The notes: generated from the letters alone by a model not told the origin. Shown: positions 17,702 to 33,315, counted from the first letter of the stretch. The stretch: DNA of 41,916 bases from Gammaproteobacteria bacterium (GCA_002716745.1 PBBW01000005.1:48927-90842); one strand, 5' to 3'. A program made the numbers and translations.

Positions 17702-18817
17702 CTAAATACCTATAGCTTTCTCAATTTCTTCTTGAGTTTCATATGGTTTTGAAATTTCCGCCCAATCAGGTTGGAAATTGTCTTCCATTTCTTGGTAACT
17801 AAGTACACCCAGTTTGTCATATTTTGGTTTAACTTTATCTGTAATAAGACCAATTCTCGTGAGGTTAGGAATGATCTTGGTAAATAACATATTTTTAAAA
17901 TGCTCGCCCTGTTGAGAATTTGCAGTAATTCTTGTTGCTTCTTCTTTTGAAATGTCTAGGAACCTTGAAATTACATCACCTGTAATTAATCTATCTCTCA
18001 TTACAACACACGCCTCAAATGCAAATTGTGCTCTATCTTCAATTTCAGCTTTCGTTAAAGTCTTGAGATAGTCTTCCAAATAATTTACTCCAAATGTTAC
18101 ATGTCTTGCTTCATCTCTAATTACATAATGTAATAGCTGTTTCAATAGACCATCATTTAAAATAATTTTCATATTATTGAATGCTGCTAATGCAAGTCCC
18201 TCAATTATGATTTGCATTCCAATAAATTTTAGATCCCATCTTTCATCAGTCAAAATTTTATCTAACAAGGATTTCAATCCATCTGTAGCAGGATATTGGA
18301 ATCCTATTTTTTCTTTTAAGTATTTATTGAAGCCCTCTACGTGTCTTGCTTCATCAAAAGTTTGAGAGGCTGCATAAAGTTTTGCATTAAATGTAGGTGC
18401 ACATGATACAAGTTGAGAGGCCACTAACAAAGCGCCTTGCTCTCCATGCAAAAATTGACTCAACTGCCATGAAACTCTATGTCTATCCATTTCTATCCTA
18501 GTCTCTGGAGATAAATCGGAAAACCCTGGAAGTTTTTCTTCTGGAAATTGAAAAATCTCAGGATTTACCAGTGGTTTATCTTTTGGATATTGTTGCTTCC
18601 AATCTAAATCAAATTCAACATTCCAATTGAGTTTCTTTCCAAGCTCATAGAGTTTTTTGATTCGATCCTCAACAACCACATAATCCCAATTGTAGGATCC
18701 TGTTAAGGGGCTTTTGAAAATCTCATTAACACATTCAACTGCATCTTGGTCTTTGGGGTTAATTTCAGGATATGAAGTAACCTTTTGTGGTTGATTTTGA
18801 ACAATTTTATTTTTCAT
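17702..18817 (-). CDS. Ferritin-like diiron protein (AurF-like superfamily)
   Basis: Paired diiron motifs HGEQGA...DEARH and EGLA...DEARH. Confidence 0.8.
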   Translation of the reverse strand: MKNKIVQNQPQKVTSYPEINPKDQDAVECVNEIFKSPLTGSYNWDYVVVEDRIKKLYELGKKLNWNVEFDLDWKQQYPKDKPLVNPEIFQFPEEKLPGFSDLSPETRIEMDRHRVSWQLSQFLHGEQGALLVASQLVSCAPTFNAKLYAASQTFDEARHVEGFNKYLKEKIGFQYPATDGLKSLLDKILTDERWDLKFIGMQIIIEGLALAAFNNMKIILNDGLLKQLLHYVIRDEARHVTFGVNYLEDYLKTLTKAEIEDRAQFAFEACVVMRDRLITGDVISRFLDISKEEATRITANSQQGEHFKNMLFTKIIPNLTRIGLITDKVKPKYDKLGVLSYQEMEDNFQPDWAEISKPYETQEEIEKAIGI

Positions 18818-18864: not shown

Positions 18865-19617
18865 ATGCCAAATAGATTAAAAAATAAGACAGCCTTTATA
18901 ACTGGTGGAGCCCAAGGTTTCGGAAAAGGTATTGCATCTAAGTTTAAAGAGGAGGGGGCAAAAGTAATTATTTCAGACATCAATAAAGCCCTTGGAGAAG
19001 AGACTGCTAAAGATTTGGGAGTTTCATTTTTAGAGCATGATGTTGGTGATCCAACACAATGGGAAAAAGCAATTAGTGAAATTAAAAGAAAAGAAGGAAA
19101 GCTTAACATTCTTGTTAATAACGCTGGCATTGGTTATTTGGGTAATGTTGAGCAGACCAGTGTAGAGGACTGGGATAGAGTCCACAAAGTTGATTTAGAT
19201 TCAGTATTTTATGGATGCAAATTCGCATTACCGCTTTTACGAGAATCTGGTAATGGTTCTATAGTAAATATCTCCTCAATTTCAGGAATTATCGCAGGAC
19301 ACAATTTTAGTGCATATAACAGTGCAAAAGCAGGAGTTAGACATCTTACAAAATCTGTAGCACTACATTGTGCAAGAACTACTGACCTCGTTAGATGTAA
19401 TAGCTTGCATCCTGTTTTCGCAAGAACAGAAATTCTTGAGGCATTGCTCAGTGATACGTCATCAGGCATGTTGGAGAAGTTAGAAAAACAAATCCCTGTA
19501 AGAAAGCTCGCAGAGATTGAGGATATTGCTAATGCAGTTCTGTTCCTATCATCAGATGAATCAAAAATGATAACTGGTACTGAACTAGTTATTGATGGTG
19601 GGCTATCAGCACAATAA
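18865..19617 (+). CDS. Short-chain dehydrogenase/reductase
   Basis: TGGAQGFG, NNAG, YNSAK, IDGG. Confidence 0.92.
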   Translation: MPNRLKNKTAFITGGAQGFGKGIASKFKEEGAKVIISDINKALGEETAKDLGVSFLEHDVGDPTQWEKAISEIKRKEGKLNILVNNAGIGYLGNVEQTSVEDWDRVHKVDLDSVFYGCKFALPLLRESGNGSIVNISSISGIIAGHNFSAYNSAKAGVRHLTKSVALHCARTTDLVRCNSLHPVFARTEILEALLSDTSSGMLEKLEKQIPVRKLAEIEDIANAVLFLSSDESKMITGTELVIDGGLSAQ

Positions 19618-19619
19618 TA

Positions 19620-20510
19620 ATGGATCCCAAAAAACTAAGTCAATCTGAAAATTCATTTGAAAGCGTAATTGATAGGCTGTCTCTCGAGCAACTAGATACT
19701 TACTTATTCAGATATAAAGGAAAAAATGCAGGTATTGTAAGAATTTTTGGGGGCCAAGTAATAGCCCAAGCTTACATTGCAGCAAATTCGACTGTAAGTG
19801 AAGAAATGTATCTCCACTCATTGCATGCATATTTTTTGCGCCCAGGAATTATCAAGCAACCTGTTCTCTTTACAGTAGATCCTGTAAGAGACGGAAAAAG
19901 CTTTTTTACTCGTACAGTAAAAGCAATCCAAAATAATGAAATTATTTTTATAATGACCGCTTCTTTTCAAAAGGAAGAAGATGGCTTAACTCACAGCATT
20001 GAAATGCCAAAAGTTCCAGACCCAGACCAGCTTAAAGATGAGATTCAAATGAGAGAAGAAAATATTGAAATTATCCCAAAGGAATTAAGAAAATTTTTTC
20101 TAAAGAAAAGGGAATATACACTCAAATGTGTGGAATGGAATGATGTCTTTGACCCAAAACCTATGCCACCTGTGCGAAATGTTTGGCTGAAGCCAAATGG
20201 CGATATTCCTAATAAAGCGTTTTTACATCATGCATTCCTAGCCTATGTTTCTGACTCTGGTCTTCTGGCCCCATGTTTATATCCTCATGGGATGAGCTAT
20301 ATGTCCCCAGACTTAATGATGGCAAGTCTTGACCATGCAATGTGGTTCCATAAAAGAGACTTTCTTTGGAATGATTGGATTCTTTACTCTACAGACAGCC
20401 CATATACCGGTGGCTCAAGAGGTCTAGGAAGAGGTACATTTTTTACCAGACAAGGCGAGGTTATAGCTTCAGTTACGCAAGAGGGATTATTTAGAGTTAA
20501 GAAAACGTAA
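19620..20510 (+). CDS. tesB: Acyl-CoA thioesterase II
   Basis: IFGGQVIAQA, HSLHAYFLRPG, RDGKSF.TR, ASLDHAMWFH, QEG. Confidence 0.92.
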   Translation: MDPKKLSQSENSFESVIDRLSLEQLDTYLFRYKGKNAGIVRIFGGQVIAQAYIAANSTVSEEMYLHSLHAYFLRPGIIKQPVLFTVDPVRDGKSFFTRTVKAIQNNEIIFIMTASFQKEEDGLTHSIEMPKVPDPDQLKDEIQMREENIEIIPKELRKFFLKKREYTLKCVEWNDVFDPKPMPPVRNVWLKPNGDIPNKAFLHHAFLAYVSDSGLLAPCLYPHGMSYMSPDLMMASLDHAMWFHKRDFLWNDWILYSTDSPYTGGSRGLGRGTFFTRQGEVIASVTQEGLFRVKKT

Positions 20511-25439: not shown

Positions 25440-26801
25440 CTATGTGTATTTTAATTCTAGATTGGGAAAAATTCTTTTGAGGTTTTTTTCAAATTCAATT
25501 TGTATTTTATTCAAGCTTTCCTTCGAGTTACCCTCAAACCTTAATACTAGCTTGGGAGATGTATTTGATGCTCTTATCAGACCCCAACAATCCTTATAAC
25601 TTACCCTCACACCATCAAGAAGATTGATATCAGCATTAGGAAAATCCATTTGCTCCGTAAACTGCTCAACAAAGAGAAATTTTTCTTCATCAAGAACATT
25701 TAAATTTAGTTCCTCAGTTGAAAAACTTTTTGGAAATTCAGCAATAATCTCATTTAGATCTTTATTATTTTGCGAGACAATACTAGAAATGACAGCTGCA
25801 GTATAAATAGCATCATCAAACCCATACCATTTATAATTTATAAAAATATGTCCAGACATTTCTCCCCCTAAAATGGCAGATGTTTCTTTGATAGTATTTT
25901 TTATATTGAAATGCCCTGTTTTTTCCATGATAGGTTTACCACCATGGCTCTTAATTAATTTAGGCAATTCATTTGAGCACTTAACGTCATAAACAACTGG
26001 CCCTTTTTTAAATTTTAAAAAATAAGAGCTCAAAAGCATTATGATGTGATCTGAGAGAACCTGGTTACCTGATCTTGTAATTAAGCCAACTCTATCGCCA
26101 TCACCATCAAATGCAAAACCAAGATCTGCTTTATTTTCCTCAATTGTACGTTTAAGCTGCACTAAATTTTTTTCTTTTCCTGGATCGGGATGATGATTGG
26201 GAAAATTTCCATCTGGCTCCTCATTAATAGAGATTATATCTATACCTATACCTTCAAAAACTTTACGAGCTAGAGGTCCTGAAGCTCCATTTCCAGCATC
26301 CAAGACAACTTTTAATGGCTTTTTTATAAGAATCTTTTCTTTTATTTCATTCAAATACTGATCTGTAAAATCATGACTAATAACTTTTCCATCTTTCTTT
26401 TTATTTTCTTTGAAGTTAACTACTTTATCTTTTATTTCTAGGCCTGAAACAGGATTACCTTTAATTACAATCTTCATCCCATTATCTTCTTTGGGATTAT
26501 GACTTCCTGTAATCATTACACCATGTTCACTCCCAGTAGCCTTAGTCGCATAGTACACCATAGGCGTTGGAACTAAGCCTAAGTCATGAACATCAACACC
26601 AATAGAAGTGATACCAACTATAAGATTTTTTTTAATTCTATCTTTTGAGAGCCTGCTATCATGACCAACATAAATAGATTGATCGCCCGCTTTAACAACA
26701 TAATTACCCAGAACAGAACCTATTTTTTGAACGACATTATCCGTTAAATCTTCATAAGCATTTCCTCTAATGTCGTATGCTCTAAAAATATTTTCGTTCA
26801 T
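25440..26801 (-). CDS. algC: Phosphomannomutase/phosphoglucomutase (AlgC-like)
   Basis: FRAYDIRG, TGSHNP, FDGDGDR, GEMSGH, RASNT. Confidence 0.9.
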   Translation of the reverse strand: MNENIFRAYDIRGNAYEDLTDNVVQKIGSVLGNYVVKAGDQSIYVGHDSRLSKDRIKKNLIVGITSIGVDVHDLGLVPTPMVYYATKATGSEHGVMITGSHNPKEDNGMKIVIKGNPVSGLEIKDKVVNFKENKKKDGKVISHDFTDQYLNEIKEKILIKKPLKVVLDAGNGASGPLARKVFEGIGIDIISINEEPDGNFPNHHPDPGKEKNLVQLKRTIEENKADLGFAFDGDGDRVGLITRSGNQVLSDHIIMLLSSYFLKFKKGPVVYDVKCSNELPKLIKSHGGKPIMEKTGHFNIKNTIKETSAILGGEMSGHIFINYKWYGFDDAIYTAAVISSIVSQNNKDLNEIIAEFPKSFSTEELNLNVLDEEKFLFVEQFTEQMDFPNADINLLDGVRVSYKDCWGLIRASNTSPKLVLRFEGNSKESLNKIQIEFEKNLKRIFPNLELKYT

Positions 26802-26841: not shown

Positions 26842-27750
26842 ATGTCAGATACGTATTGGGTTGACGGCAAATATCTTAAAAAGGAAGATGTTTCTATAAG
26901 CCCACTAACACACACTTTTCACTATGGCCTTGGAGTTTTTGAGGGAGTCAGATCTTATGGAGCTGAAGATGGAAGTGTAAATATCTTCAGACTAGATGAG
27001 CACACAAATAGACTTCTTGAATCTGCAAAAATAACTGGCATCGATATTAACTTTTCATATGATGAAATTTTTGATGCTCAGATACAGGTTGTAAAAAAAT
27101 CGAATCTACAAAATGCTTACATAAGACCCTTGCTTTATCTTGGTAGTGAGCGCTTAGGCTTAGATATTGATGGAATAGATTCTCATGCAATGGTAACTTG
27201 TTGGGAGTGGCCAGCCTATTTTGGTGAAGATGCACTGGAAAAGGGAATCGATGTAATGGTATCTTCATTTACAAGACAATTTCCAAATAGTTTAATGACA
27301 AAATCTAAGATTAGTGGTGGATACGTTAATGGAATAATGGCTCATGACCAAGCAAAGAAAAATGGATATCAAGAGGCGGTACTTCTCGATACTAATGGAT
27401 TTGTTGCAGAGGGAAGCGGACAAAATATTTTTGTAGTAAAAGATGGATCTTTAATTACACCCTCATTAAATTGTTGCCTAAATGGGATTACAAGGAGGTC
27501 GGTTTTAAAGTTTGCGGAAGATGAAAATATTGATGTAATTGAGCGAAATATTACCCGAGATGAATTATATACTGCAGATGAATTATTTTTTTGCGGAACA
27601 GCAGTTGAGATAACCCCAATCAGATCAGTTGATAAAAAACTTATTTGTAATGGAAATAGGGGTGAAATAACAAATTTAATACAATCATTGTACCTTGATA
27701 CTGTTCAAGGCAAATCTAAAAAATATCAAGATTGGCTCACTAGAGTTTAA
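26842..27750 (+). CDS. ilvE: Branched-chain amino acid aminotransferase
   Basis: HYGLGVFEGVR, YIRP, K.SG.Y, EGSGQN, GITR, GTAVEITP. ATG 26842 preferred because it avoids overlap with algC. Confidence 0.95.
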   Translation: MSDTYWVDGKYLKKEDVSISPLTHTFHYGLGVFEGVRSYGAEDGSVNIFRLDEHTNRLLESAKITGIDINFSYDEIFDAQIQVVKKSNLQNAYIRPLLYLGSERLGLDIDGIDSHAMVTCWEWPAYFGEDALEKGIDVMVSSFTRQFPNSLMTKSKISGGYVNGIMAHDQAKKNGYQEAVLLDTNGFVAEGSGQNIFVVKDGSLITPSLNCCLNGITRRSVLKFAEDENIDVIERNITRDELYTADELFFCGTAVEITPIRSVDKKLICNGNRGEITNLIQSLYLDTVQGKSKKYQDWLTRV

Positions 27751-28982
27751 TGAAAAAACTCAAAATTGCTTTCTTAAGCTATAGGAGTGATCCATTTTCT
27801 GGAGGCCAAGGGATCTATTTAAAAAATGTCTGTGAGTCTTTAGCTGATTACGGACACGAAATTACAATCTATTCAGGAAGCCCTTTACCAATTGTCTCCA
27901 GTAAAATTTCAATTGTTGAGGTTGAAACTCCAAAATATTTTGAGACGTTTAGTTTTTCTAAAAGAATTAAAATTTTTAAAAATCAACCAAAAAGTCCTTT
28001 GGAATTCCAAGATTTTTTTGAAACAATTACTGGAACCTTTTCCGAACCAATGTTTTTTGGACAACGATTACAAAGGAATAATCACTTTAAGGCAAATGAA
28101 AAGAAATATGACGTTTTTCATGATAATCAATCTCTTGGCATATATCCGGGCACTATTAAAAGCAGATTAGTTACTACCCTTCATCATCCAATCCAAATAG
28201 ATAGAAGTATTGATCTAATGAATGAGAAGTCGGTACTTAAGAGAATATCGATCAATCGCTGGTATTCATTTCTTAATTATCAAGAAGCAAATGTGTTCTC
28301 ATCACGTCTTGTTATAACCCCATCTAATAATTCGAAGAATGATATAACTAAGTTTTTTAAATATCCTTCAAATCAAATTGAGGTTTTATGGAATGGGATT
28401 AATCTTGACGATTTTCAATTTAGAAAGAAAAAAGATTTTGGTAAGAAACTTGTGACAATAATAAGTTCAGATGTTCCTATGAAAAATTTAAAAAATATTT
28501 TAATTGGCTTTTCAATTGCACTTAAAAATGATGAAGGCCTTACTCTGACAATAGTTGGTGATGTTAGAGAGGAAAATTTGAAATTAATAAAAAGTCTTGG
28601 CTTAGATGATTTTGTAATTATCCATCAAAAACTAACTAAGAAAAAATTAATTGAGATCTTATCGGCATGCGATATTGGCATAAGTGGTTCTTTATATGAA
28701 GGGTTTGGTTTTCCACTCATTGAAATGATTGCTATTGGTTTACCAATACTGGCTTCAAATAAGGGGTCTCTTCCAGAAATTATGGGAGATGCAGGAATCA
28801 CTTTTAACCCATATGATCCAAATGAATTATCAGATTCTATTCAGAAATTAGTTAATAATGATGAAATGCAAAATAAAATTTCAAGTAATTGCCAAATTCG
28901 AAGGGATGATTTTTTTGGTTGGGACGAGTATGCTAAAAAGCTTGAATTCTTCTACCAAAAAATAATTGATGGACACATTTAA
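27750..28982 (+). CDS. GT4 glycosyltransferase resembling mycobacterial MMP mannosyltransferase ManT
   Basis: IAFLSYRS...GGQG.Y, FHDNQSLG, TLHHPI..DR, RWY.F, SSDVPMK, YEGFGFP.IE. Confidence 0.8.
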   Translation: MKKLKIAFLSYRSDPFSGGQGIYLKNVCESLADYGHEITIYSGSPLPIVSSKISIVEVETPKYFETFSFSKRIKIFKNQPKSPLEFQDFFETITGTFSEPMFFGQRLQRNNHFKANEKKYDVFHDNQSLGIYPGTIKSRLVTTLHHPIQIDRSIDLMNEKSVLKRISINRWYSFLNYQEANVFSSRLVITPSNNSKNDITKFFKYPSNQIEVLWNGINLDDFQFRKKKDFGKKLVTIISSDVPMKNLKNILIGFSIALKNDEGLTLTIVGDVREENLKLIKSLGLDDFVIIHQKLTKKKLIEILSACDIGISGSLYEGFGFPLIEMIAIGLPILASNKGSLPEIMGDAGITFNPYDPNELSDSIQKLVNNDEMQNKISSNCQIRRDDFFGWDEYAKKLEFFYQKIIDGHI

Positions 28983-29664
28983 TTTTAATTCTATAAACCT
29001 TAAAAAAATTAAATCATTTGCTGATATAGGTTGTGGAAACGGAAGACACTTAAAATCACTTGGTTTTAAGCTTCAAATGTGCCGTATGACTGGAGTCGAT
29101 CATTCTTCAAGTGAAATCATGCAGTTGAGATCAGAATTTCAGAATTATATTTGTAAAAATCAAAATTCATATGAGTTTATTGACGAAGATATAAGAAAAC
29201 TTTCAATAGATAGCTCATCACAAGATTTGGTAATTTGTTCGGAAGTTTTAGAACATGTTCCAAATTTTGAAATGGTTCTTAAAGAGTGTGTACGAATCTT
29301 GAAACCAAACGGAGTTTTACTAATAAGTGTGCCCAGCTATCTCCCTGAAAAGTTTTGTTGGCTTTTCTCAAAAGAATATCAACAAACACCTGGAGGACAC
29401 ATAAGGATTTTTAAGAAAAATTTCCTCAGGGAGGTCTTTAAAAGACAAGGCTTAAAAATATTTAAGGCACATAGGCAGCATGCTTTTCATTCTTTTTATT
29501 GGATAATGAGATCTAAAAATAAAATGAAAGATTCTAAATTTTTGCAATCATTTCATGAGCTCCTCGTTAAACAGATGTTCGGTAAAGCTAAGATTAGTGA
29601 AAGGTTTGAAAAGGTGATTAATCCATTATTTGGAAAGAGTGAGTGCTTCTATTTACATAAATGA
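28969..29664 (+). CDS. Class I SAM-dependent methyltransferase (OrfD-like candidate 3-O-methyltransferase)
   Basis: DIGCGNGRH, SEVLEHVP, SVP..LPEKFCW..S.EY...PGGHIRI, HAFHS.YW, GKS...YL.K. Confidence 0.8.
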   Translation: MDTFNFNSINLKKIKSFADIGCGNGRHLKSLGFKLQMCRMTGVDHSSSEIMQLRSEFQNYICKNQNSYEFIDEDIRKLSIDSSSQDLVICSEVLEHVPNFEMVLKECVRILKPNGVLLISVPSYLPEKFCWLFSKEYQQTPGGHIRIFKKNFLREVFKRQGLKIFKAHRQHAFHSFYWIMRSKNKMKDSKFLQSFHELLVKQMFGKAKISERFEKVINPLFGKSECFYLHK

Positions 29665-30635
29665 ACAAAAGAGAATTTATAGAGAATATATCTTGGATAA
29701 AAAGAAATCAGAATGCTGATGGTTCCATACAGTGGGATGAGAAGGGTAAGTGTGATCCCTGGGATCACATTGAATGTCTGATTGCTTTGGCAATTTATAA
29801 TGAAAATGAATCTTTTTTGGCAGGCATTGAATGGGTCAGAAATAATCTAAATGAAGAATTCATGGTTGCACCAGTTTTTCATAGACAAAAAGCTAGTGAA
29901 GATCATTTTGAGTACCATCATGCTCCTTATTTTGCAGTAGCATTGCTTCAGTATTACTACAGCTCCAATAACAAGAAAGTTTTACATGATAACTTAGAGA
30001 TACTTAGAGGAATAGTATTAAAAACTCTTGCTGCACGTGATGAATATGGATATTTTTACTGGGCAAAGGATGAGAATGGCTTTAATGATAATTCCTTAAT
30101 TACAGCAACTAGTTCAATTTTTTTGTCACTGAAGTGTGTCTCTGCTATCTATAAAATTTTGGGGATAAGGTCATTAAAACTGGAAAATGAGATTGCTTCT
30201 ATAAAACAAACTTTTGATTTGAAATCAAAAAGATTTAATAGGGACAATATTGATAGATCTAGGTTTTCAATGGATTGTTATTACCCTTATTTAAGTGGTT
30301 TAATCATGGATGCAGGTTTAAATAGAAATCTAGAGAAATTCTATGTGAAAGATCTTGGAATAAAATGTGTCATCGAAGAGCCTTGGGTGACAATTGCTGA
30401 GAGCTCAGAAGCTATAATCGCATTATTACGTTCTGGAGATAAAGCTTTTGCTCATAAGATTTTCGAGAATATTTTGAAATTAAGAGGAACTGATGGGCTA
30501 TTTCCAACTGGTTATCAATACGAACAGAAAATTTTTTGGCCAGATGAAAAATCTACCTGGACAAATGCTGCTGTTGTAATAGCCGCAGATGCTCTTTTTG
30601 ATCTAACAAGCAAAAATAAAGCTATTCTTGTTTAA
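29661..30635 (+). CDS. (alpha/alpha)-barrel 'prenyltransferase-like' protein resembling MMP hydrolase MmpH
   Basis: Q..DGSI.W...DPWDHIE, RFSMD.YYP.L.G, PWVT.AE..E, TGYQY...WP.E..TWT.AAV..AADAL. Confidence 0.72.
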   Translation: MNKREFIENISWIKRNQNADGSIQWDEKGKCDPWDHIECLIALAIYNENESFLAGIEWVRNNLNEEFMVAPVFHRQKASEDHFEYHHAPYFAVALLQYYYSSNNKKVLHDNLEILRGIVLKTLAARDEYGYFYWAKDENGFNDNSLITATSSIFLSLKCVSAIYKILGIRSLKLENEIASIKQTFDLKSKRFNRDNIDRSRFSMDCYYPYLSGLIMDAGLNRNLEKFYVKDLGIKCVIEEPWVTIAESSEAIIALLRSGDKAFAHKIFENILKLRGTDGLFPTGYQYEQKIFWPDEKSTWTNAAVVIAADALFDLTSKNKAILV

Positions 30636-31230
30636 TTAGTGCGACAAGGCTTTTCTCTCTCTTTACTAACTTAAAACCTTTCTTTAGCGCTTTCTCCATT
30701 ATGGCCTTCGGTGCTTGCCCCCCTTCTTCAATAGAATCGTATATATCATGAATGGCCATTATTCCGCCTTTTTTAATTTTTTTATTCCAGAAATTAAAAT
30801 CATCTTCTGCAGATTCAAATGTATGACTTCCATCAATGAATAATAATGAAATATCATCTTTAAGAATCTTTGAGGCTGTTTTAGAACTCGTCACCATAGG
30901 TATGACAAAATCATCAAGATCGTTATCAGTCAGATTTTTAATGAATGAAGGGAAAGTGTTGATTCGTCCTAAAACATGATCATATTCTTCTGAATCATGG
31001 TAAAGCTCTCCAAGCTGATGTTCTTCAGAGCCCTTATGATGATCAATTGAAATAAAGGTAGCAGATACTTCTTTTGCAGCTGCAGCCAAATAGCAAGTTG
31101 ATTTTCCACAATACGATCCGATCTCCACTGTGACTCCATCTTTTGAATATTCTTTTACAAGTTGAAATAAAAAATTCCCCTCCTCAATGTCAAGAAAACC
31201 TTTTACGTGCTGATAATTTTTTCTACTCAT
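30622..31230 (-). CDS. Methyltransf_24 class I SAM methyltransferase resembling MMP 1-O-methyltransferase MeT1
   Basis: KGF...EG, VEIGSYCGKST, IDHHKGSEEHQ.G..YHD, LFIDGSH, IHDI......GGQAP. ATG 31230 overlaps the lpxL stop. Confidence 0.85.
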   Translation of the reverse strand: MSRKNYQHVKGFLDIEEGNFLFQLVKEYSKDGVTVEIGSYCGKSTCYLAAAAKEVSATFISIDHHKGSEEHQLGELYHDSEEYDHVLGRINTFPSFIKNLTDNDLDDFVIPMVTSSKTASKILKDDISLLFIDGSHTFESAEDDFNFWNKKIKKGGIMAIHDIYDSIEEGGQAPKAIMEKALKKGFKLVKREKSLVALIKQE

Positions 31231-32086
31231 AAATTTCAGGGTACTGTGATTTGAATCTTCGATGATGCCACAAATATTGCTCAGGTGCCTTTGAAATACT
31301 GTTTTCAATTTCAATGTTAAGATTTTCTGCAAATTTTTTCTCTGAATCTGATTCATTATTAAAATCCTTTATTACAGCTCTGAAACCACCACTAACTCTG
31401 AAGAAGTCAAAATAAACAACATTACATCCAGATATTTTCTTTAATTTTGCTGGGACCGTAGTTGTTAAACACCTCTTCCCATAAAAGCTTGAAATAATGG
31501 AATGTTTATTTCTATAGTCTTGGTCTGGTCCATACATCACAATCTTCCCATCCTTCAATATTTTTAGACATTGTTTTATATCAGAGTTAGAAATGATCCC
31601 TTTCAGAGACTTTGTTCTACCTTTCATTTGAATCATTTGAATTAGGGCATTATTATTCGGTCTTTCTAAGCCGTACATACCAAATTTAGTTGCTAAGATT
31701 CTAGCAGAGAGCTCAAGATAAAGTGTATGTCTAAATAAGACTAAAGCTCCCTTATTTGAACTCTGAAATTTATCCAAAATCTCTAACCCGATAAATTCAA
31801 TATTTAGTTTGCTTATCTGCTCATTGCTGGCATTCCAAGCAAAATTATTTTCATATAGAGCTCTATATGTTTCATTCCATATGTTTGTCTTCAACAATGA
31901 CTTTTCAGAATCAGTTAGATTAATAAAACAGTGATCAATATTGGCATTTATAATTCGCCTCCTTCTTTTAAGAAACATGCTCAAAAATCTCCACATATGA
32001 GAGTCATTGCCTTTAAACCAGCGCCTTGGCAAAATACAAATAAATTTTGTGAAAATAAGTATTAATGGGAGAATAATATTATTCAT
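31223..32086 (-). CDS. lpxL: Lipid A late acyltransferase (LpxL/HtrB family)
   Basis: RR.I...NI..CF, H....E, PDQDY, PEQYLWHHRRFK. Confidence 0.85.
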   Translation of the reverse strand: MNNIILPLILIFTKFICILPRRWFKGNDSHMWRFLSMFLKRRRRIINANIDHCFINLTDSEKSLLKTNIWNETYRALYENNFAWNASNEQISKLNIEFIGLEILDKFQSSNKGALVLFRHTLYLELSARILATKFGMYGLERPNNNALIQMIQMKGRTKSLKGIISNSDIKQCLKILKDGKIVMYGPDQDYRNKHSIISSFYGKRCLTTTVPAKLKKISGCNVVYFDFFRVSGGFRAVIKDFNNESDSEKKFAENLNIEIENSISKAPEQYLWHHRRFKSQYPEIYE

Positions 32087-32088
32087 AA

Positions 32089-33315
32089 ATGTTTATTGTA
32101 TATAACTTAATTTATATTTTTGTCCTGCCACTATTAATTCTAAAAGATTTCTTTAGAAAAGATCATGGAGGCATTAGATTGATTTCAAAAAGATTTGGTC
32201 TTGGGCTATCAGAGCAAAAGCATACACACATTTGGCTTCATGGCGTAAGTTTAGGAGAAATTAAAACACTAATTCCAGTAGCTAATTCTTTTTTACAAAA
32301 AAATGAAAGAATTCTTTTATCTTCTACAACAAATACGGGAATCTCTAAGATAAATAAATTATTTGGTGAAAACCCAAATGTTGAAATAATACCATTTCCA
32401 TACGACTTTCAATCAATTCATAACAAAATAATTAAGAGTTTTCGTGTTAAAAAGATAATTCTTTTTGAAAGTGAGTTTTGGCCAAACCTATTATCTCAAA
32501 AGAATGATGAAGTAAAAATTGTATCGTTTAATACAATTATTTCTGATAACACTTTTTCGAGATATAAATTTTTTAAATCATTCATAAAAGAGGCACTAAG
32601 TACTATAGATATGTTTTTTGTACAGTCACTAGATGCTGCGTCTAAACTTAAAAATTTTGGGTTATCCAATGTAAAAGTTTTAGGAAATATTAAGATATAC
32701 AAAGAAACCTATGAGGCAAATCAAAGTGATTACCAAAGAATAAAAAACAAAATTAGTGATTGCTCAAAATGTATATTTACTGCAGGTAGCACACATAACA
32801 ATGAAGAAGAATTTATTATTTCTAGTTTACCGGAAAATAATGAGCTCCTTCTATTTATTGCTCCTAGGCATCCGGAAAGATTCATCAGTGTAGAGAGACT
32901 TTTAGAAAAACAAAAGTTTAAGTGGTCAAAATTCTCAGAAATTGAAAAGGTTACTGATGAAAAAATAATTCTCTTTGATGAAGTAGGGACATTATTTGAG
33001 TTATACATGAATTCAAATTTTGCTGTTGTTGGAGGGAGTATAAAATATAAGAAGGGACATAACTTTTTAGAGCCAATATTTGCTGGAACATCAGTAATAA
33101 CAGGAGCAAATCTTGAAAACTACTTAGAAATAAAATCACTATTTTGTGATACTGGAGTTATTGAAACATTTACGTCTGAATCTGAGTTGAGAGGGCTAGT
33201 AAATTTATATATTGATCAGAAAGTCAGAGAAAGGCGACTAATAGTACAGAAAACAGAAATTGATAAATTTGGAGGCAAATATAAACAGATCATCCAGGAA
33301 TTACATGAAATATAA
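32089..33315 (+). CDS. waaA: Kdo transferase
   Basis: IWLHGVSLGE, ESEFWPN, GNIK, GSTH..EE, APRHPERF, VGGS....GHNFLEP. Confidence 0.93.
   Translation: MFIVYNLIYIFVLPLLILKDFFRKDHGGIRLISKRFGLGLSEQKHTHIWLHGVSLGEIKTLIPVANSFLQKNERILLSSTTNTGISKINKLFGENPNVEIIPFPYDFQSIHNKIIKSFRVKKIILFESEFWPNLLSQKNDEVKIVSFNTIISDNTFSRYKFFKSFIKEALSTIDMFFVQSLDAASKLKNFGLSNVKVLGNIKIYKETYEANQSDYQRIKNKISDCSKCIFTAGSTHNNEEEFIISSLPENNELLLFIAPRHPERFISVERLLEKQKFKWSKFSEIEKVTDEKIILFDEVGTLFELYMNSNFAVVGGSIKYKKGHNFLEPIFAGTSVITGANLENYLEIKSLFCDTGVIETFTSESELRGLVNLYIDQKVRERRLIVQKTEIDKFGGKYKQIIQELHEI

What the first reader, a model, noticed from the sequence alone, without database searches (positions are those of the whole stretch)
27750..31230. 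Complete mycobacterial-type methylmannose polysaccharide (MMP) gene set in a Gram-negative, marine-type genome
Seen: four adjacent genes encoding a GT4 (SYRS..GGQG, HDNQSLG, HHPI), a SAM methyltransferase (GGHIRI, HAFHS.YW), an alpha/alpha-barrel protein (DPWDHIE, FSMD.YYP, PWVT.AE) and a convergent Methyltransf_24 enzyme (EIGSYCGKST, DHHKGSEEHQ, FIDGSH, GGQAP). Established: in nontuberculous mycobacteria MMP is made by a four-gene cluster of ManT (alpha-1,4-mannosyltransferase), OrfD (putative 3-O-methyltransferase), MmpH (hydrolase) and MeT1 (1-O-methyltransferase). MMP helices bind long-chain acyl-CoA. From memory the motifs here match those enzymes, most clearly MeT1 and ManT. Inference: this organism may make an O-methylated mannan acyl-CoA chaperone, a polymer I know only from actinobacteria. 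A PMM/PGM gene lies one gene away and tesB is nearby. Retention in a genome this streamlined suggests the cluster is important.
Basis: partly seen in the sequence, partly recalled or inferred. Interest (0 to 1): 0.9.

Follow-up and report, generated by a model that had tools for sequence, protein, structure and literature searches.

The report
Mycobacterial methylmannose-polysaccharide genes in SAR86
A very abundant ocean bacterium (SAR86) carries, as a core part of its tiny genome, the same four-gene set that mycobacteria use to make a methylated mannose polymer that binds fatty chains, a polymer so far described only in actinobacteria.

Summary
Window 27750-31356 holds four tightly packed genes. 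They are reciprocal best hits of the mycobacterial MMP enzymes ManT, pMeT3, MmpH and MeT1, in the same order and orientation. PDB matches: 7qsg E 5e-51, 7qsj E 3e-38, 6g7d E 1e-42. Catalytic residues of ManT and MmpH are kept, and the MmpH model overlays 7qsj (TM 0.93).

The genome is SAR86. An MmpH homologue is found in 40 of 41 genomes of the order, and all four genes lie in the same chromosomal slot in all four families. The same cluster also occurs in Cellvibrionales/Halieaceae, Caulobacter and Syntrophales. It is rare in the phylum sample (5 of 401) and commoner in Actinomycetota (53 of 301). In the four-protein tree each major taxon forms its own clade, so this is not a recent transfer from actinobacteria.

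Best reading: an intracellular, self-priming, O-methylated alpha-1,4-mannan-like oligosaccharide. The product has not been seen. Most SAR86 genomes lack a recognisable GDP-mannose pyrophosphorylase, and ManT's guanine-contact Asp is not kept, so the donor sugar is uncertain.

None of my five relevant literature searches found this cluster described outside actinobacteria. It is a new member of a known kind, and it can be tested in cultured carriers.

The parts
27750..28982 (+). ManT homologue (GT4, GT-B alpha-1,4-mannosyltransferase family of the MMP cluster), 410 aa
   Evidence: PDB 7qsg (M. hassiacum ManT) E 5.4e-51 over residues 4-406; the next PDB hit is 2e-11. Best hit in the M. parascrofulaceum genome is the ManT position, E 2.3e-50, against 2.7e-8 for the next. 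The reverse hit maps here. Gly15, Lys240, Glu313, Gly314, Phe315 and Glu321 are conserved; Asp293 is Lys297. No TM segment.
28969..29664 (+). pMeT3 homologue (Methyltransf_11 class I SAM methyltransferase, putative 3-O-methyltransferase); overlaps the ManT stop by 14 nt
   Evidence: Pfam PF08241, 72.1 bits. Best hit in the M. parascrofulaceum genome lies directly beside ManT, E 2.3e-36, against 3.2e-7 for the next. The reverse hit maps here, E 5.5e-37. GGH.RI and H..H...W are conserved in 86 sequences. No solved MeT3 structure exists; PDB hits are generic. Start codon.
29661..30635 (+). MmpH homologue ((alpha/alpha)6-barrel endo-alpha-1,4-mannosidase family); ATGA overlap with the MeT3 stop
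   Evidence: PDB 7qsj E 3.1e-38 is the only PDB hit. No Pfam or NCBIfam family. AF2 model pLDDT 94.8, Foldseek TM 0.93 to 7qsj. D32/W34/D35/E247/E250 correspond to MmpH D47/W49/D50/E262/E265; 9 of 11 site residues are kept.
30622..31230 (-). MeT1 homologue (Methyltransf_24, 1-O-methyltransferase family). Convergent with MmpH, 3' ends overlap by 14 nt. Probable start ATG 31230; the longest ORF runs to 31356
   Evidence: PDB 6g7d/6g80/6h40 E 1.4e-42 over residues 50-229; the next hit is 0.16. The reverse hit from M. parascrofulaceum is E 1.8e-37, 41% identity. Relatives align only from about residue 16-51 onward. The start at 31230 overlaps the lpxL stop by 8 nt.
25440..26801 (-). PMM/PGM (phosphomannomutase/phosphoglucomutase). 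Possible supplier of hexose-1-phosphate; its association with the cluster is inferred only
   Evidence: Four PGM_PMM Pfam domains. NCBIfam PgmG 403.8 bits, below the cut-off of 600. The order PBP1-PMM-ilvE-cluster is kept in three of the four SAR86 families; in the fourth, ilvE lies upstream with a 3-kb gap before ManT and PMM is not in the fetched loci.

Best explanation
The four genes are orthologues of the mycobacterial MMP cluster, in the order ManT > pMeT3 > MmpH, with MeT1 convergent. They most likely make a soluble, cytoplasmic, polymethylated alpha-1,4-linked mannose-type oligosaccharide whose reducing end is capped by 1-O-methylation.

The mechanism is inferred by orthology to the scheme in PMC9883506. 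MmpH cuts mature chains into defined oligomers. The GT4 enzyme extends these primers one hexose at a time from a nucleotide sugar. pMeT3 methylates the new units with SAM. MeT1 methylates the free reducing end of the fragment that lacks a cap. The polymer is thus copied from pre-existing polymer and passed to daughter cells.

In SAR86 the set is an anciently held core trait, not a recent import. Its likely role is to sequester long hydrophobic acyl chains (fatty acids or acyl-CoA), or to help at low temperature, in a lineage whose carbon metabolism centres on lipids.

Shown: homology, synteny, conserved catalytic residues, fold and distribution. Inferred: the sugar, the linkage, the methylation pattern, the self-priming scheme in this organism and the physiological role.
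For: (1) Three of the four proteins hit the solved M. hassiacum MMP enzymes far above anything else in the PDB: ManT 7qsg 5.4e-51 (next 2e-11), MmpH 7qsj 3.1e-38 (only hit), MeT1 6g7d 1.4e-42 (next 0.16).

(2) Reciprocal best hits. The window GT4 and MT11 find the adjacent ManT and pMeT3 genes in the M. parascrofulaceum genome, with gaps of about 29-42 orders of magnitude to the next hit. The four M. parascrofulaceum proteins hit only the window's four genes in G000, apart from one weak MeT3 hit at 2.6e-5.

(3) The gene order equals MHAS_04402-04405. Of 80 loci from named genomes, 49 hold all four genes, and 48 of those 49 have this order and orientation.

(4) ManT residues Gly15, Lys240, Glu313 and Glu321 are kept in every row that covers them; 13 of the 81 rows are cut before Gly15. 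MmpH Asp47, Asp50 and Glu262 are kept in the window. 9 of 11 MmpH subsite residues are kept in the window, and the exact mycobacterial 11-residue pattern occurs in 11 of 23 SAR86 rows.

(5) The MmpH model overlays 7qsj at TM 0.93/0.87, rmsd 1.6 A.

(6) None of the four proteins has a predicted TM segment, unlike the neighbouring LpxL and WaaA. ManT/MeT3 and MeT3/MmpH overlap, which suggests translational coupling.

(7) 40 of 41 genomes of the order have an MmpH homologue; the one miss is 74% complete. All four genes are present in 14 of 14 fetched loci from all four families.

(8) In the four-protein tree Actinomycetota (12 rows), Syntrophales (5) and other Gammaproteobacteria (21) are each one clade at SH-aLRT 100, Alphaproteobacteria (3) are one clade at 92, and SAR86 is separate from all of them.

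(9) SAR86 papers describe lipid degradation and beta-oxidation as central (PMC3358033 and PMC11582366, passages read).

(10) Weak: contigs from RNA libraries of three studies carry near-identical fragments of all four genes. The tool warns that DNA carry-over cannot be excluded.
Against: No polymer has been observed in any carrier outside actinobacteria.

A canonical GDP-mannose pyrophosphorylase was not found in G000, which is 88.5% complete. In the order, TIGR01479 passes its cut-off in only 4 of 41 genomes, and only 7 of 41 have a match that includes the nucleotidyltransferase part. NF052502 never reaches its cut-off; the best score is 131.6 against 440 bits. G007 (single contig, 93% complete) has only GalU-like, MurU-like and GlmU-like nucleotidyltransferases.

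ManT Asp293, proposed in PMC9883506 to contact guanine N2, is Lys in the window. It is K/R/N/F/E/H across SAR86 and Thr in most Cellvibrionales.

MmpH Asn101 and Phe102 are both His in the window.

pMeT3 has not been characterised biochemically even in mycobacteria.

MMP's proposed role concerns mycobacterial fatty-acid synthesis (PMC9883506). From my own knowledge, Proteobacteria lack the FAS-I that MMP is said to modulate.

One SAR86 family, CHAB-I-7, is reported to lack fadB and the raised copy numbers of beta-oxidation genes (PMC11582366 passage). Yet all four families keep the cluster.
Confidence: 0.68

Rival explanations
1. The enzymes work by the same logic (primer-dependent GT4, two methyltransferases, recycling endo-hydrolase), but SAR86 builds a chemically different polymethylated oligosaccharide. 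It could use another hexose (for example glucose from UDP-glucose) or mannose from a nucleotide sugar other than GDP-mannose.
For: Most SAR86 genomes lack a recognisable Man-1-P guanylyltransferase, while GalU-like and GlmU-like genes are always among the few nucleotidyltransferases found. The guanine-contact Asp293 is not kept. Two MmpH subsite residues differ in the window. By contrast, three cultured non-SAR86 gammaproteobacterial carriers all have ManC above the cut-off, so SAR86 is the odd one out. Twenty-four of 41 SAR86 genomes have a TIGR01479 match to the PMI cupin part alone. Where I looked, this ORF is a cytidylyltransferase-like plus PMI-cupin fusion that could make a non-GDP nucleotide-mannose: by Pfam in G007, and by full-length alignment to the G007 protein in G027 and over residues 43-254 in G000.
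Against: Half of the SAR86 rows (11 of 23) carry exactly the mycobacterial MmpH subsite pattern, and the window's His-His variant also occurs in an actinobacterium. MeT1 is 38-41% identical to the Mycobacterium enzyme. Asp293 also varies in carriers that do have ManC, so it is not diagnostic. The sugar contacts in ManT are mainly main-chain (PMC9883506), so sequence cannot decide.
Confidence: 0.2
2. The cluster decorates or builds an envelope glycan, such as a methylated mannan on the LPS core or an O-antigen-like chain. This would fit its position beside lpxL and waaA.
For: meT1 overlaps the lpxL stop by 8 nt, and waaA follows directly. lpxL and/or waaA lie within about 1-5 kb of the cluster in the SAR86 loci that reach that far, and waaA does so in several Halieaceae and other gammaproteobacterial loci. 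From my own knowledge, methyl-capped polymannan O-antigens made by GT4 enzymes exist in E. coli O8/O9.
Against: The same four genes in the same order occur in Actinomycetota, which have no LPS, and in Caulobacter and Syntrophales loci where no lpxL or waaA match lies within the 6-kb flanks. No TM segment or signal-like N-terminus is present in any of the four proteins. A reducing-end 1-O-methyltransferase and a recycling endo-hydrolase fit a free oligosaccharide, not a lipid-linked one (PMC9883506). In other SAR86 families lpxL is separated from meT1 by 1.5-3 kb.
Confidence: 0.07
3. The MmpH homologue is mainly catabolic, and the set salvages exogenous methylated mannans from seawater rather than making a resident polymer.
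For: SAR86 is described as a polysaccharide and lipid scavenger with many TonB receptors (PMC3358033 abstract and passages).
Against: No transporter, TonB receptor or secretion signal accompanies the cluster. A glycosyltransferase and two SAM methyltransferases are anabolic. The flanking genes are housekeeping genes.
Confidence: 0.03

Closest known systems
MMP biosynthetic cluster of nontuberculous mycobacteria (M. hassiacum MHAS_04402-04405: ManT, pMeT3, MmpH, MeT1; PDB 7qsg, 7qsj, 6g7d)
   Same: Same four protein families as reciprocal best hits, same gene order and orientation, same catalytic residues in ManT and MmpH, same MmpH fold, all soluble proteins.
   Different: Identity to Mycobacterium is only 28-38%. 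The host is a Gram-negative, 1.1-Mb marine gammaproteobacterium. Most SAR86 genomes lack a recognisable GDP-mannose pyrophosphorylase. ManT Asp293 is not kept. MmpH N101H and F102H. meT1 is coupled to lpxL. The product has not been seen.
Acetylated MMP of Streptomyces griseus and MMP-cluster homologues in other Actinomycetota (Nocardia, Rhodococcus, Corynebacterium), as cited in PMC9883506
   Same: They show that the cluster and polymer are not limited to mycobacteria and that the polymer can carry lineage-specific decoration (passages). Actinomycetota form one clade in my tree.
   Different: All are actinobacteria. The SAR86 and other proteobacterial clusters fall outside that clade.
Mycobacterial 6-O-methylglucose lipopolysaccharide (MGLP)
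   Same: The other known cytoplasmic polymethylated polysaccharide proposed to bind acyl chains (PMC9883506). It is a model for the rival reading in which the hexose is glucose.
   Different: MGLP is made by unrelated genes (recalled, not tested here). No MGLP-type genes were looked for.
GH15 / GH125 (alpha/alpha)6-barrel glycoside hydrolases (clan GH-L)
   Same: Same barrel fold and a conserved general-base Glu (weaker Foldseek hits).
   Different: Sequence identity is below 15% and TM is at most 0.75, against 0.93 to MmpH. MmpH-type enzymes are endo-acting on methylated alpha-1,4-mannan.

Membership tests
MMP biosynthetic gene cluster (ManT-pMeT3-MmpH-MeT1) | All four proteins present as reciprocal best hits of the mycobacterial enzymes | tested here: met
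   PDB; window proteins against the M. parascrofulaceum genome; M. parascrofulaceum proteins against G000.
MMP biosynthetic gene cluster (ManT-pMeT3-MmpH-MeT1) | Gene order ManT, pMeT3, MmpH, then MeT1 (MHAS_04402 to 04405), contiguous | tested here: met
   48 of the 49 complete loci among 80 share the order.
MmpH (MMP endo-alpha-1,4-mannosidase) | Catalytic Asp47/Asp50 and general base Glu262 | tested here: met
   D32, D35 and E247 in the window. Glu262, Glu265, Met215, Tyr219 and Trp49 are the same in all 102 rows. Asp47 and Asp50 vary in a few rows: E in 1 row, and N in 8 rows.
MmpH (MMP endo-alpha-1,4-mannosidase) | Subsite residues Trp49, Asn101, Phe102, Thr163, Met215, Tyr219, Glu265, Trp315 | tested here: inconclusive
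   6 of 8 are kept in the window; Asn101 and Phe102 are both His. The exact mycobacterial pattern occurs in 11 of 23 SAR86 rows, and the His-His variant occurs in 1 of 15 actinobacterial rows.
MmpH (MMP endo-alpha-1,4-mannosidase) | (alpha/alpha)6-barrel fold like 7qsj | tested here: met
   pLDDT 94.8; TM 0.93/0.87; rmsd 1.6 A over 325 columns.
[quoted passage not shown] | Gly15 loop, Lys240, Glu313-Gly-Phe, Glu321 | tested here: met
   G18, K245, E317-G-F and E325 in the window. Conserved in every row that covers them; 13 of 81 rows are cut before Gly15.
[quoted passage not shown] | Asp293, the proposed contact to guanine N2 of GDP-Man | tested here: not met
   Lys297 in the window. It is D in 12 of 14 actinobacterial rows, T in most Cellvibrionales and variable in SAR86. 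It also varies in carriers that have ManC, so its diagnostic value is doubtful.
[quoted passage not shown] | GDP-mannose available in the cell | tested here: not met
   No ManC-type gene in G000. TIGR01479 passes its cut-off in 4 of 41 genomes and NF052502 in 0 of 41. An unrecognised route cannot be excluded.
MeT1 (MMP 1-O-methyltransferase) | Close homology to 6g7d across the catalytic domain | tested here: met
   E 1.4e-42 over residues 50-229; 38-41% identity to the M. parascrofulaceum enzyme.
MeT1 (MMP 1-O-methyltransferase) | Metal- and mannoside-binding residues defined in the 2019 structure paper | not testable with these tools
   The paper (PMC6338870) is not held, so I do not list those residues.
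pMeT3 (putative MMP 3-O-methyltransferase) | Orthology to MHAS_04403 / MSMEG_6483 | tested here: met
   The activity is uncharacterised even in mycobacteria.
MMP (the polymer) | Linear alpha-1,4-linked 3-O-methylmannose chain of about 11-14 units with a 1-O-methyl reducing end | not testable with these tools
   Needs chemistry on a cultured carrier.

The most novel reading that the evidence does not exclude
SAR86, and several other lipid- or hydrocarbon-associated Proteobacteria, keep a heritable, self-primed methylated mannan as a cytoplasmic carrier for hydrophobic acyl chains. If so, polymethylated polysaccharides would be a widespread bacterial device rather than a mycobacterial oddity.

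In SAR86 the nucleotide-sugar supply would run through a non-canonical, streamlined enzyme. This is a 256-aa fusion of a cytidylyltransferase-like domain and a PMI cupin, which in G007 sits between metK and ahcY. It would replace the usual ManC and tie polymer synthesis to the methyl cycle.

Because SAR86 is so abundant, such a polymer could be a sizeable source of O-methyl sugars in marine dissolved organic matter.
Probability: 0.2. Interest if true: 0.85.

Novelty: new member of a known kind. Interest (0 to 1): 0.68.

Why it matters
MMP and its four-gene cluster have been treated as a trait of nontuberculous mycobacteria and a few related actinobacteria. Its proposed roles are tied to mycobacterial fatty-acid synthesis and cold adaptation (PMC9883506).

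This finding would change the frame in several ways:
- The intact cluster is a core, syntenic trait of an entire order of very abundant, genome-streamlined ocean bacteria, and it occurs in Cellvibrionales/Halieaceae, Caulobacter and Syntrophales. The polymer's function would then be general rather than mycobacterial.
- Retention in 1-Mb genomes argues for a strong fitness contribution.
- It offers simple, non-pathogenic Gram-negative models for the self-replicating polymer mechanism.
- It raises a concrete biochemical puzzle: how SAR86 activates the sugar without ManC.
- It suggests an unrecognised source of methylated sugars in the sea.

It can be tested now, because a SAR86 isolate and several cultured carriers exist.

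Tried and rejected
1. NCBIfam gave only sub-threshold generic hits for the GT4 and the MT11, and none for the MmpH and MeT1 homologues. Pfam has no family for MmpH. Standard annotation therefore cannot name the cluster.

2. PDB search with the MT11 gave only generic class I methyltransferases.

3. I tried to read the 2019 MeT1 structure paper (PMC6338870). It is not held, so MeT1 substrate residues were not checked.

No earlier findings were used.

5. I considered using ManT Asp293 as a marker of donor specificity and rejected it. The residue varies (Thr, Asn, Ser) in Cellvibrionales, and the three cultured members of that group that I checked have canonical ManC.

6. I considered the small 210-220-aa nucleotidyltransferase as a hidden Man-1-P guanylyltransferase. 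It sits beside an AmgK-like kinase, and its best match is MurU at 142 bits, below the cut-off of 250. It is more likely peptidoglycan recycling.

7. The CBS-nucleotidyltransferase in G000 (106 bits to NF052502) is present at E<=1e-20 in only 16 of 41 genomes. It cannot be the general supplier.

8. The cupin fusion is not universal. By TIGR01479 at E<=1e-5, 24 of 41 genomes show a cupin-only match, 7 show a ManC-like match and 10 show none; three of those ten are 92-93% complete. G080 (97% complete) gave no match to the G007 fusion protein at E<=1e-8.

9. tesB proximity: six unrelated genes lie between tesB and the cluster (hemE, aroB, aroK, a PBP1-like gene, PMM, ilvE, with the PBP1 label from my reading of the translation). 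I did not test whether this linkage is conserved and give it no weight.

10. RNA evidence: only assembled contigs from RNA libraries could be laid. Bins without cover mean nothing, and DNA carry-over cannot be excluded, so expression is not shown.

11. The tree is rooted at the midpoint only. It used a quick LG+G4 search, and 37 of 57 rows have deviant composition. No donor or direction of transfer is claimed. Forty-five of the 102 loci were left out because one or more of the four proteins was missing or truncated.

12. Supplements of PMC9883506 (Table S1, Figs S7 and S10) are closed. They may list homologues outside the genera named in the text.

13. Searches behind the statement that this is not in print. 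In addition, the word search of the SAR86 isolate paper PMC11582366 gave 0 hits for 'methyltransferase' and 'glycosyltransferase', and that of the earlier SAR86 genome paper PMC3358033 gave 0 hits for 'mannos'. The library lacks most subscription journals.

Full report
WHAT IS THERE. Window 27750-31356 holds four ORFs.
- A 410-aa GT4 glycosyltransferase at 27750-28982(+).
- A 232-aa Methyltransf_11 enzyme at 28966-29664(+).
- A 324-aa protein with no Pfam or NCBIfam family at 29661-30635(+).
- A convergent Methyltransf_24 enzyme at 30622-31356(-).

The first three overlap one another: 14 nt at ManT/MeT3 if MeT3 starts at ATG 28969, and ATGA at MeT3/MmpH. The fourth most likely starts at ATG 31230, where it overlaps the stop of the upstream lpxL by 8 nt. 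None of the four has a hydrophobic segment of TM type, whereas the flanking LpxL and WaaA do. Upstream lie a PBP1-like gene (my reading of the translation), PMM/PGM and ilvE. Downstream lie lpxL, waaA and miaA. A TesB-type thioesterase lies 7 kb upstream.

HOMOLOGY TO THE MMP ENZYMES. Against all PDB sequences:
- The GT4 hits 7qsg at E 5.4e-51 over its whole length. 7qsg is the ManT entry that PMC9883506 cites; its PDB molecule name is generic. The next hit is 2e-11.
- The unnamed protein hits only 7qsj, 'Methylmannose polysaccharide hydrolase (MmpH)', at 3.1e-38.
- The Methyltransf_24 protein hits 6g7d/6g80/6h40 at 1.4e-42; the next hit is 0.16. I recall these entries as the M. hassiacum MeT1 structures; the PDB name is only 'Methyltransferase domain protein'.
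- No MeT3 structure exists, and the MT11 protein gives generic hits.

Reciprocal tests hold. In the 6.6-Mb M. parascrofulaceum genome the window GT4 and MT11 find two adjacent genes, at E 2.3e-50 and 2.3e-36, against next-best hits of 2.7e-8 and 3.2e-7. The four proteins of that Mycobacterium locus (L072) hit the four window genes in G000 and essentially nothing else. The order ManT, pMeT3, MmpH, MeT1 equals MHAS_04402-04405 as given in the Methods of PMC9883506.

RESIDUES AND FOLD. The residue roles come from PMC9883506 (sections 11 and 14).
- MmpH Asp47, Trp49, Asp50, Glu262 and Glu265 correspond to D32, W34, D35, E247 and E250 in the window protein.
- Of the 11 listed site residues, 9 are kept. 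Asn101 and Phe102 are both His.
- The exact mycobacterial pattern occurs in 11 of 23 SAR86 rows and 30 of 38 other gammaproteobacterial rows. A His-His variant also occurs in one actinobacterium.
- ManT Gly15, Lys240, Glu313-Gly-Phe and Glu321 are kept in every row that covers them; 13 of the 81 rows are cut before Gly15.
- Asp293, proposed to read guanine N2, is Lys in the window and variable outside actinobacteria.
- An AlphaFold2 model of the MmpH homologue (pLDDT 94.8) overlays 7qsj at TM 0.93/0.87 and rmsd 1.6 A. The next entry reaches TM 0.75.

WHOSE GENOME, AND HOW WIDESPREAD. The window lies in a 1.12-Mb, 9-contig genome that is 88.5% complete. Its closest named relatives are 'SAR86 cluster bacterium' records.
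- An MmpH homologue is found in 40 of 41 genomes of the order: 23/24, 6/6, 5/5 and 5/5 in the four families, not counting G000. The one miss is 74% complete.
- In 14 of 14 fetched loci from all four families the four genes sit together. In three families they sit in the slot PBP1-PMM-ilvE-[cluster]-lpxL-waaA, with 1.5-3 kb of other DNA between meT1 and lpxL in two of the families. In the fourth family ilvE lies upstream with a 3-kb gap before ManT, and PMM and the PBP1-like gene are not in the fetched loci.
- Outside the order the gene is rare and patchy. Six further genomes are positive in a class sample of 301. A phylum sample gives 5 of 401 including G000. An Actinomycetota sample gives 53 of 301.
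- A scan of one genome per species found at least 584 relatives. The 80 most similar to the query profile came from SAR86, Cellvibrionales/Halieaceae/Spongiibacteraceae (including the cultured Zhongshania aliphaticivorans, Seongchinamella sediminis and Pseudomaricurvus hydrocarbonicus), Caulobacter, Syntrophales/Smithella, Desulfobacteraceae and Actinomycetota.
- Forty-nine of these 80 loci hold all four genes, 48 of them in the window's order. Fifteen of the 23 Desulfobacterota loci hold MmpH alone within 6 kb.

A maximum-likelihood tree of the four concatenated proteins has 57 rows; 45 loci were dropped for missing or truncated genes. It puts Actinomycetota, Syntrophales and the other Gammaproteobacteria each in one clade at SH-aLRT 100, and the three Alphaproteobacteria in one clade at 92. 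SAR86 forms two groups on either side of the midpoint root, and one unnamed gammaproteobacterial row falls inside them. The cluster is therefore old in each lineage. SAR86 did not receive it recently from actinobacteria. No direction of transfer can be claimed, because the tree has only a midpoint root and strong compositional heterogeneity.

HOW IT PROBABLY WORKS. By orthology with the scheme established for mycobacteria (PMC9883506 Discussion):
1. MmpH cuts mature chains into defined oligomers.
2. The GT4 extends primers of three or more units.
3. pMeT3 3-O-methylates the added units.
4. MeT1 caps the free reducing end.

New polymer is thus copied from old polymer. All of this is inference for SAR86. 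The soluble nature of the four proteins, the presence of a reducing-end methyltransferase and a recycling hydrolase, and the same cluster in bacteria without LPS all argue for a free cytoplasmic oligosaccharide. They argue against an LPS decoration despite the lpxL/waaA neighbourhood.

The role is open. The mycobacterial proposals are modulation of fatty-acid metabolism and help at low temperature. SAR86 is described as centred on lipid uptake and beta-oxidation, and several other carriers carry hydrocarbon- or fatty-acid-related names. I did not test that association statistically. The smallest SAR86 family reportedly lacks fadB yet keeps the cluster.

THE OPEN PROBLEM: THE DONOR SUGAR.
- G000 has no ManC. 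Its five NTP_transferase genes look like RfbA, GalU, a CBS-fused enzyme, MurU and (by its 463-aa size only; not scanned) GlmU.
- Across 41 genomes of the order, GMP_PMI passes its cut-off in 4. It includes the nucleotidyltransferase part in 7.
- The mycobacterial-type guanylyltransferase model never passes its cut-off.
- A closed 1.0-Mb relative, G007, has only GalU-like, MurU-like and GlmU-like enzymes.
- Three cultured gammaproteobacterial carriers outside SAR86 all have ManC.

So either SAR86 activates mannose by an unrecognised enzyme, or its polymer uses another donor. One candidate turned up in passing. It is a 256-aa fusion of a cytidylyltransferase-like domain with an intact HxGH motif (best NCBIfam match the RfaE domain II model, 62.5 bits) and a ManC-type PMI cupin (64.9 bits). 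In G007 it lies between metK and ahcY. SAR86 genomes show no GT9 heptosyltransferase and no heptose kinase in the 5 of 5 examined, so the domain is unlikely to serve ADP-heptose synthesis. The fusion is common in marine data and is named only 'cytidyltransferase-like'. It is not universal in the order: 24 of 41 genomes show a cupin-only match and 10 of 41 show none. It was full-length only in SAR86 genomes in the class sample.

LITERATURE. PMC9883506 searched only mycobacteria and eight related actinobacteria. Its text names homologues only in actinobacterial genera. Four full-text searches found nothing on MMP or polymethylated polysaccharides in Proteobacteria or SAR86. The word searches of the two SAR86 genome papers add that one (PMC11582366) has no hit for 'methyltransferase' or 'glycosyltransferase' and the other (PMC3358033) has no hit for 'mannos'. 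The library omits most subscription journals, supplements were closed and the 2019 MeT1 paper was not held.

EXPRESSION. Contigs assembled from four RNA libraries (three studies) carry near-identical fragments of all four genes. One piece bridges the MeT3/MmpH junction. This is a weak hint only.

VERDICT. The cluster is a new, unexpectedly broad and deeply rooted occurrence of a known system. There is one unresolved difference, the sugar activation step, which could make the SAR86 version a chemical variant. The product and its role await chemistry on a cultured carrier.

Noticed in passing
Outside the window: G000 C6:130148-130813(+), about 52 kb downstream of the cluster; clean copy in G007, L119:1401-2171(-): A 256-aa fusion of a cytidylyltransferase-like domain (HxGH motif intact; best NCBIfam match the RfaE domain II model) with a ManC-type mannose-6-P isomerase cupin. 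In G007 it sits between metK and ahcY. It is a candidate non-canonical PMI or nucleotide-mannose enzyme. It is abundant in marine metagenomes (at least 7919 protein clusters) and named only 'cytidyltransferase-like'. By TIGR01479, 24 of 41 SAR86-order genomes show a cupin-only match. The G000 copy looks broken or ambiguous in the assembly.
   Followed up: partly
window 31223-31230 and 31223-33315: The probable meT1 start (31230) overlaps the lpxL stop by 8 nt, so lpxL and meT1 look co-translated here. The linkage ilvE-cluster-(lpxL)-waaA is kept across SAR86, and waaA lies within about 5 kb of the cluster in several Halieaceae and other gammaproteobacterial loci.
   Followed up: partly
Loci L032, L033, L035, L036, L043-L045, L053, L055, L069, L077, L078, L083, L086, L098: In 15 of 23 Desulfobacterota loci the MmpH homologue stands without ManT, MeT3 or MeT1 within 6 kb. 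In L033 its neighbours are MoxR/BatA-type genes upstream and a hexapeptide acyltransferase and an OmpA-domain protein downstream. Whether the partners lie elsewhere in those genomes was not checked.
   Followed up: partly
G000, G007, G016, G027, G026 (whole genomes): No GT9 heptosyltransferase and no HldE-type heptose kinase were found in 5 of 5 SAR86 genomes. This suggests a heptose-free LPS core.
   Followed up: no
window 17702-18817(-), 18865-19617(+), 19620-20510(+): A di-iron AurF-like protein (35.2 bits; also a sub-threshold match to fatty aldehyde decarbonylase, 26.2 bits against a cut-off of 28) lies head-to-head with an SDR that is followed by a TesB-type acyl-CoA thioesterase. This may be a small lipid-related group.
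   Followed up: no
Representative proteins P0149 (740 aa), P0156 (590 aa), P0221 (606 aa), P0195 (519 aa); G101 open frame 654 aa: Some MmpH-family members carry the barrel as the C-terminal part of much longer proteins, which suggests fusions with an unknown N-terminal domain.
   Followed up: no
window 27000-27750 (ilvE) against 27750-31356: In the RNA-library contigs laid on the region, ilvE is covered by longer and deeper contigs than the four cluster genes. Contig depth cannot rank genes, so nothing is concluded.
   Followed up: no
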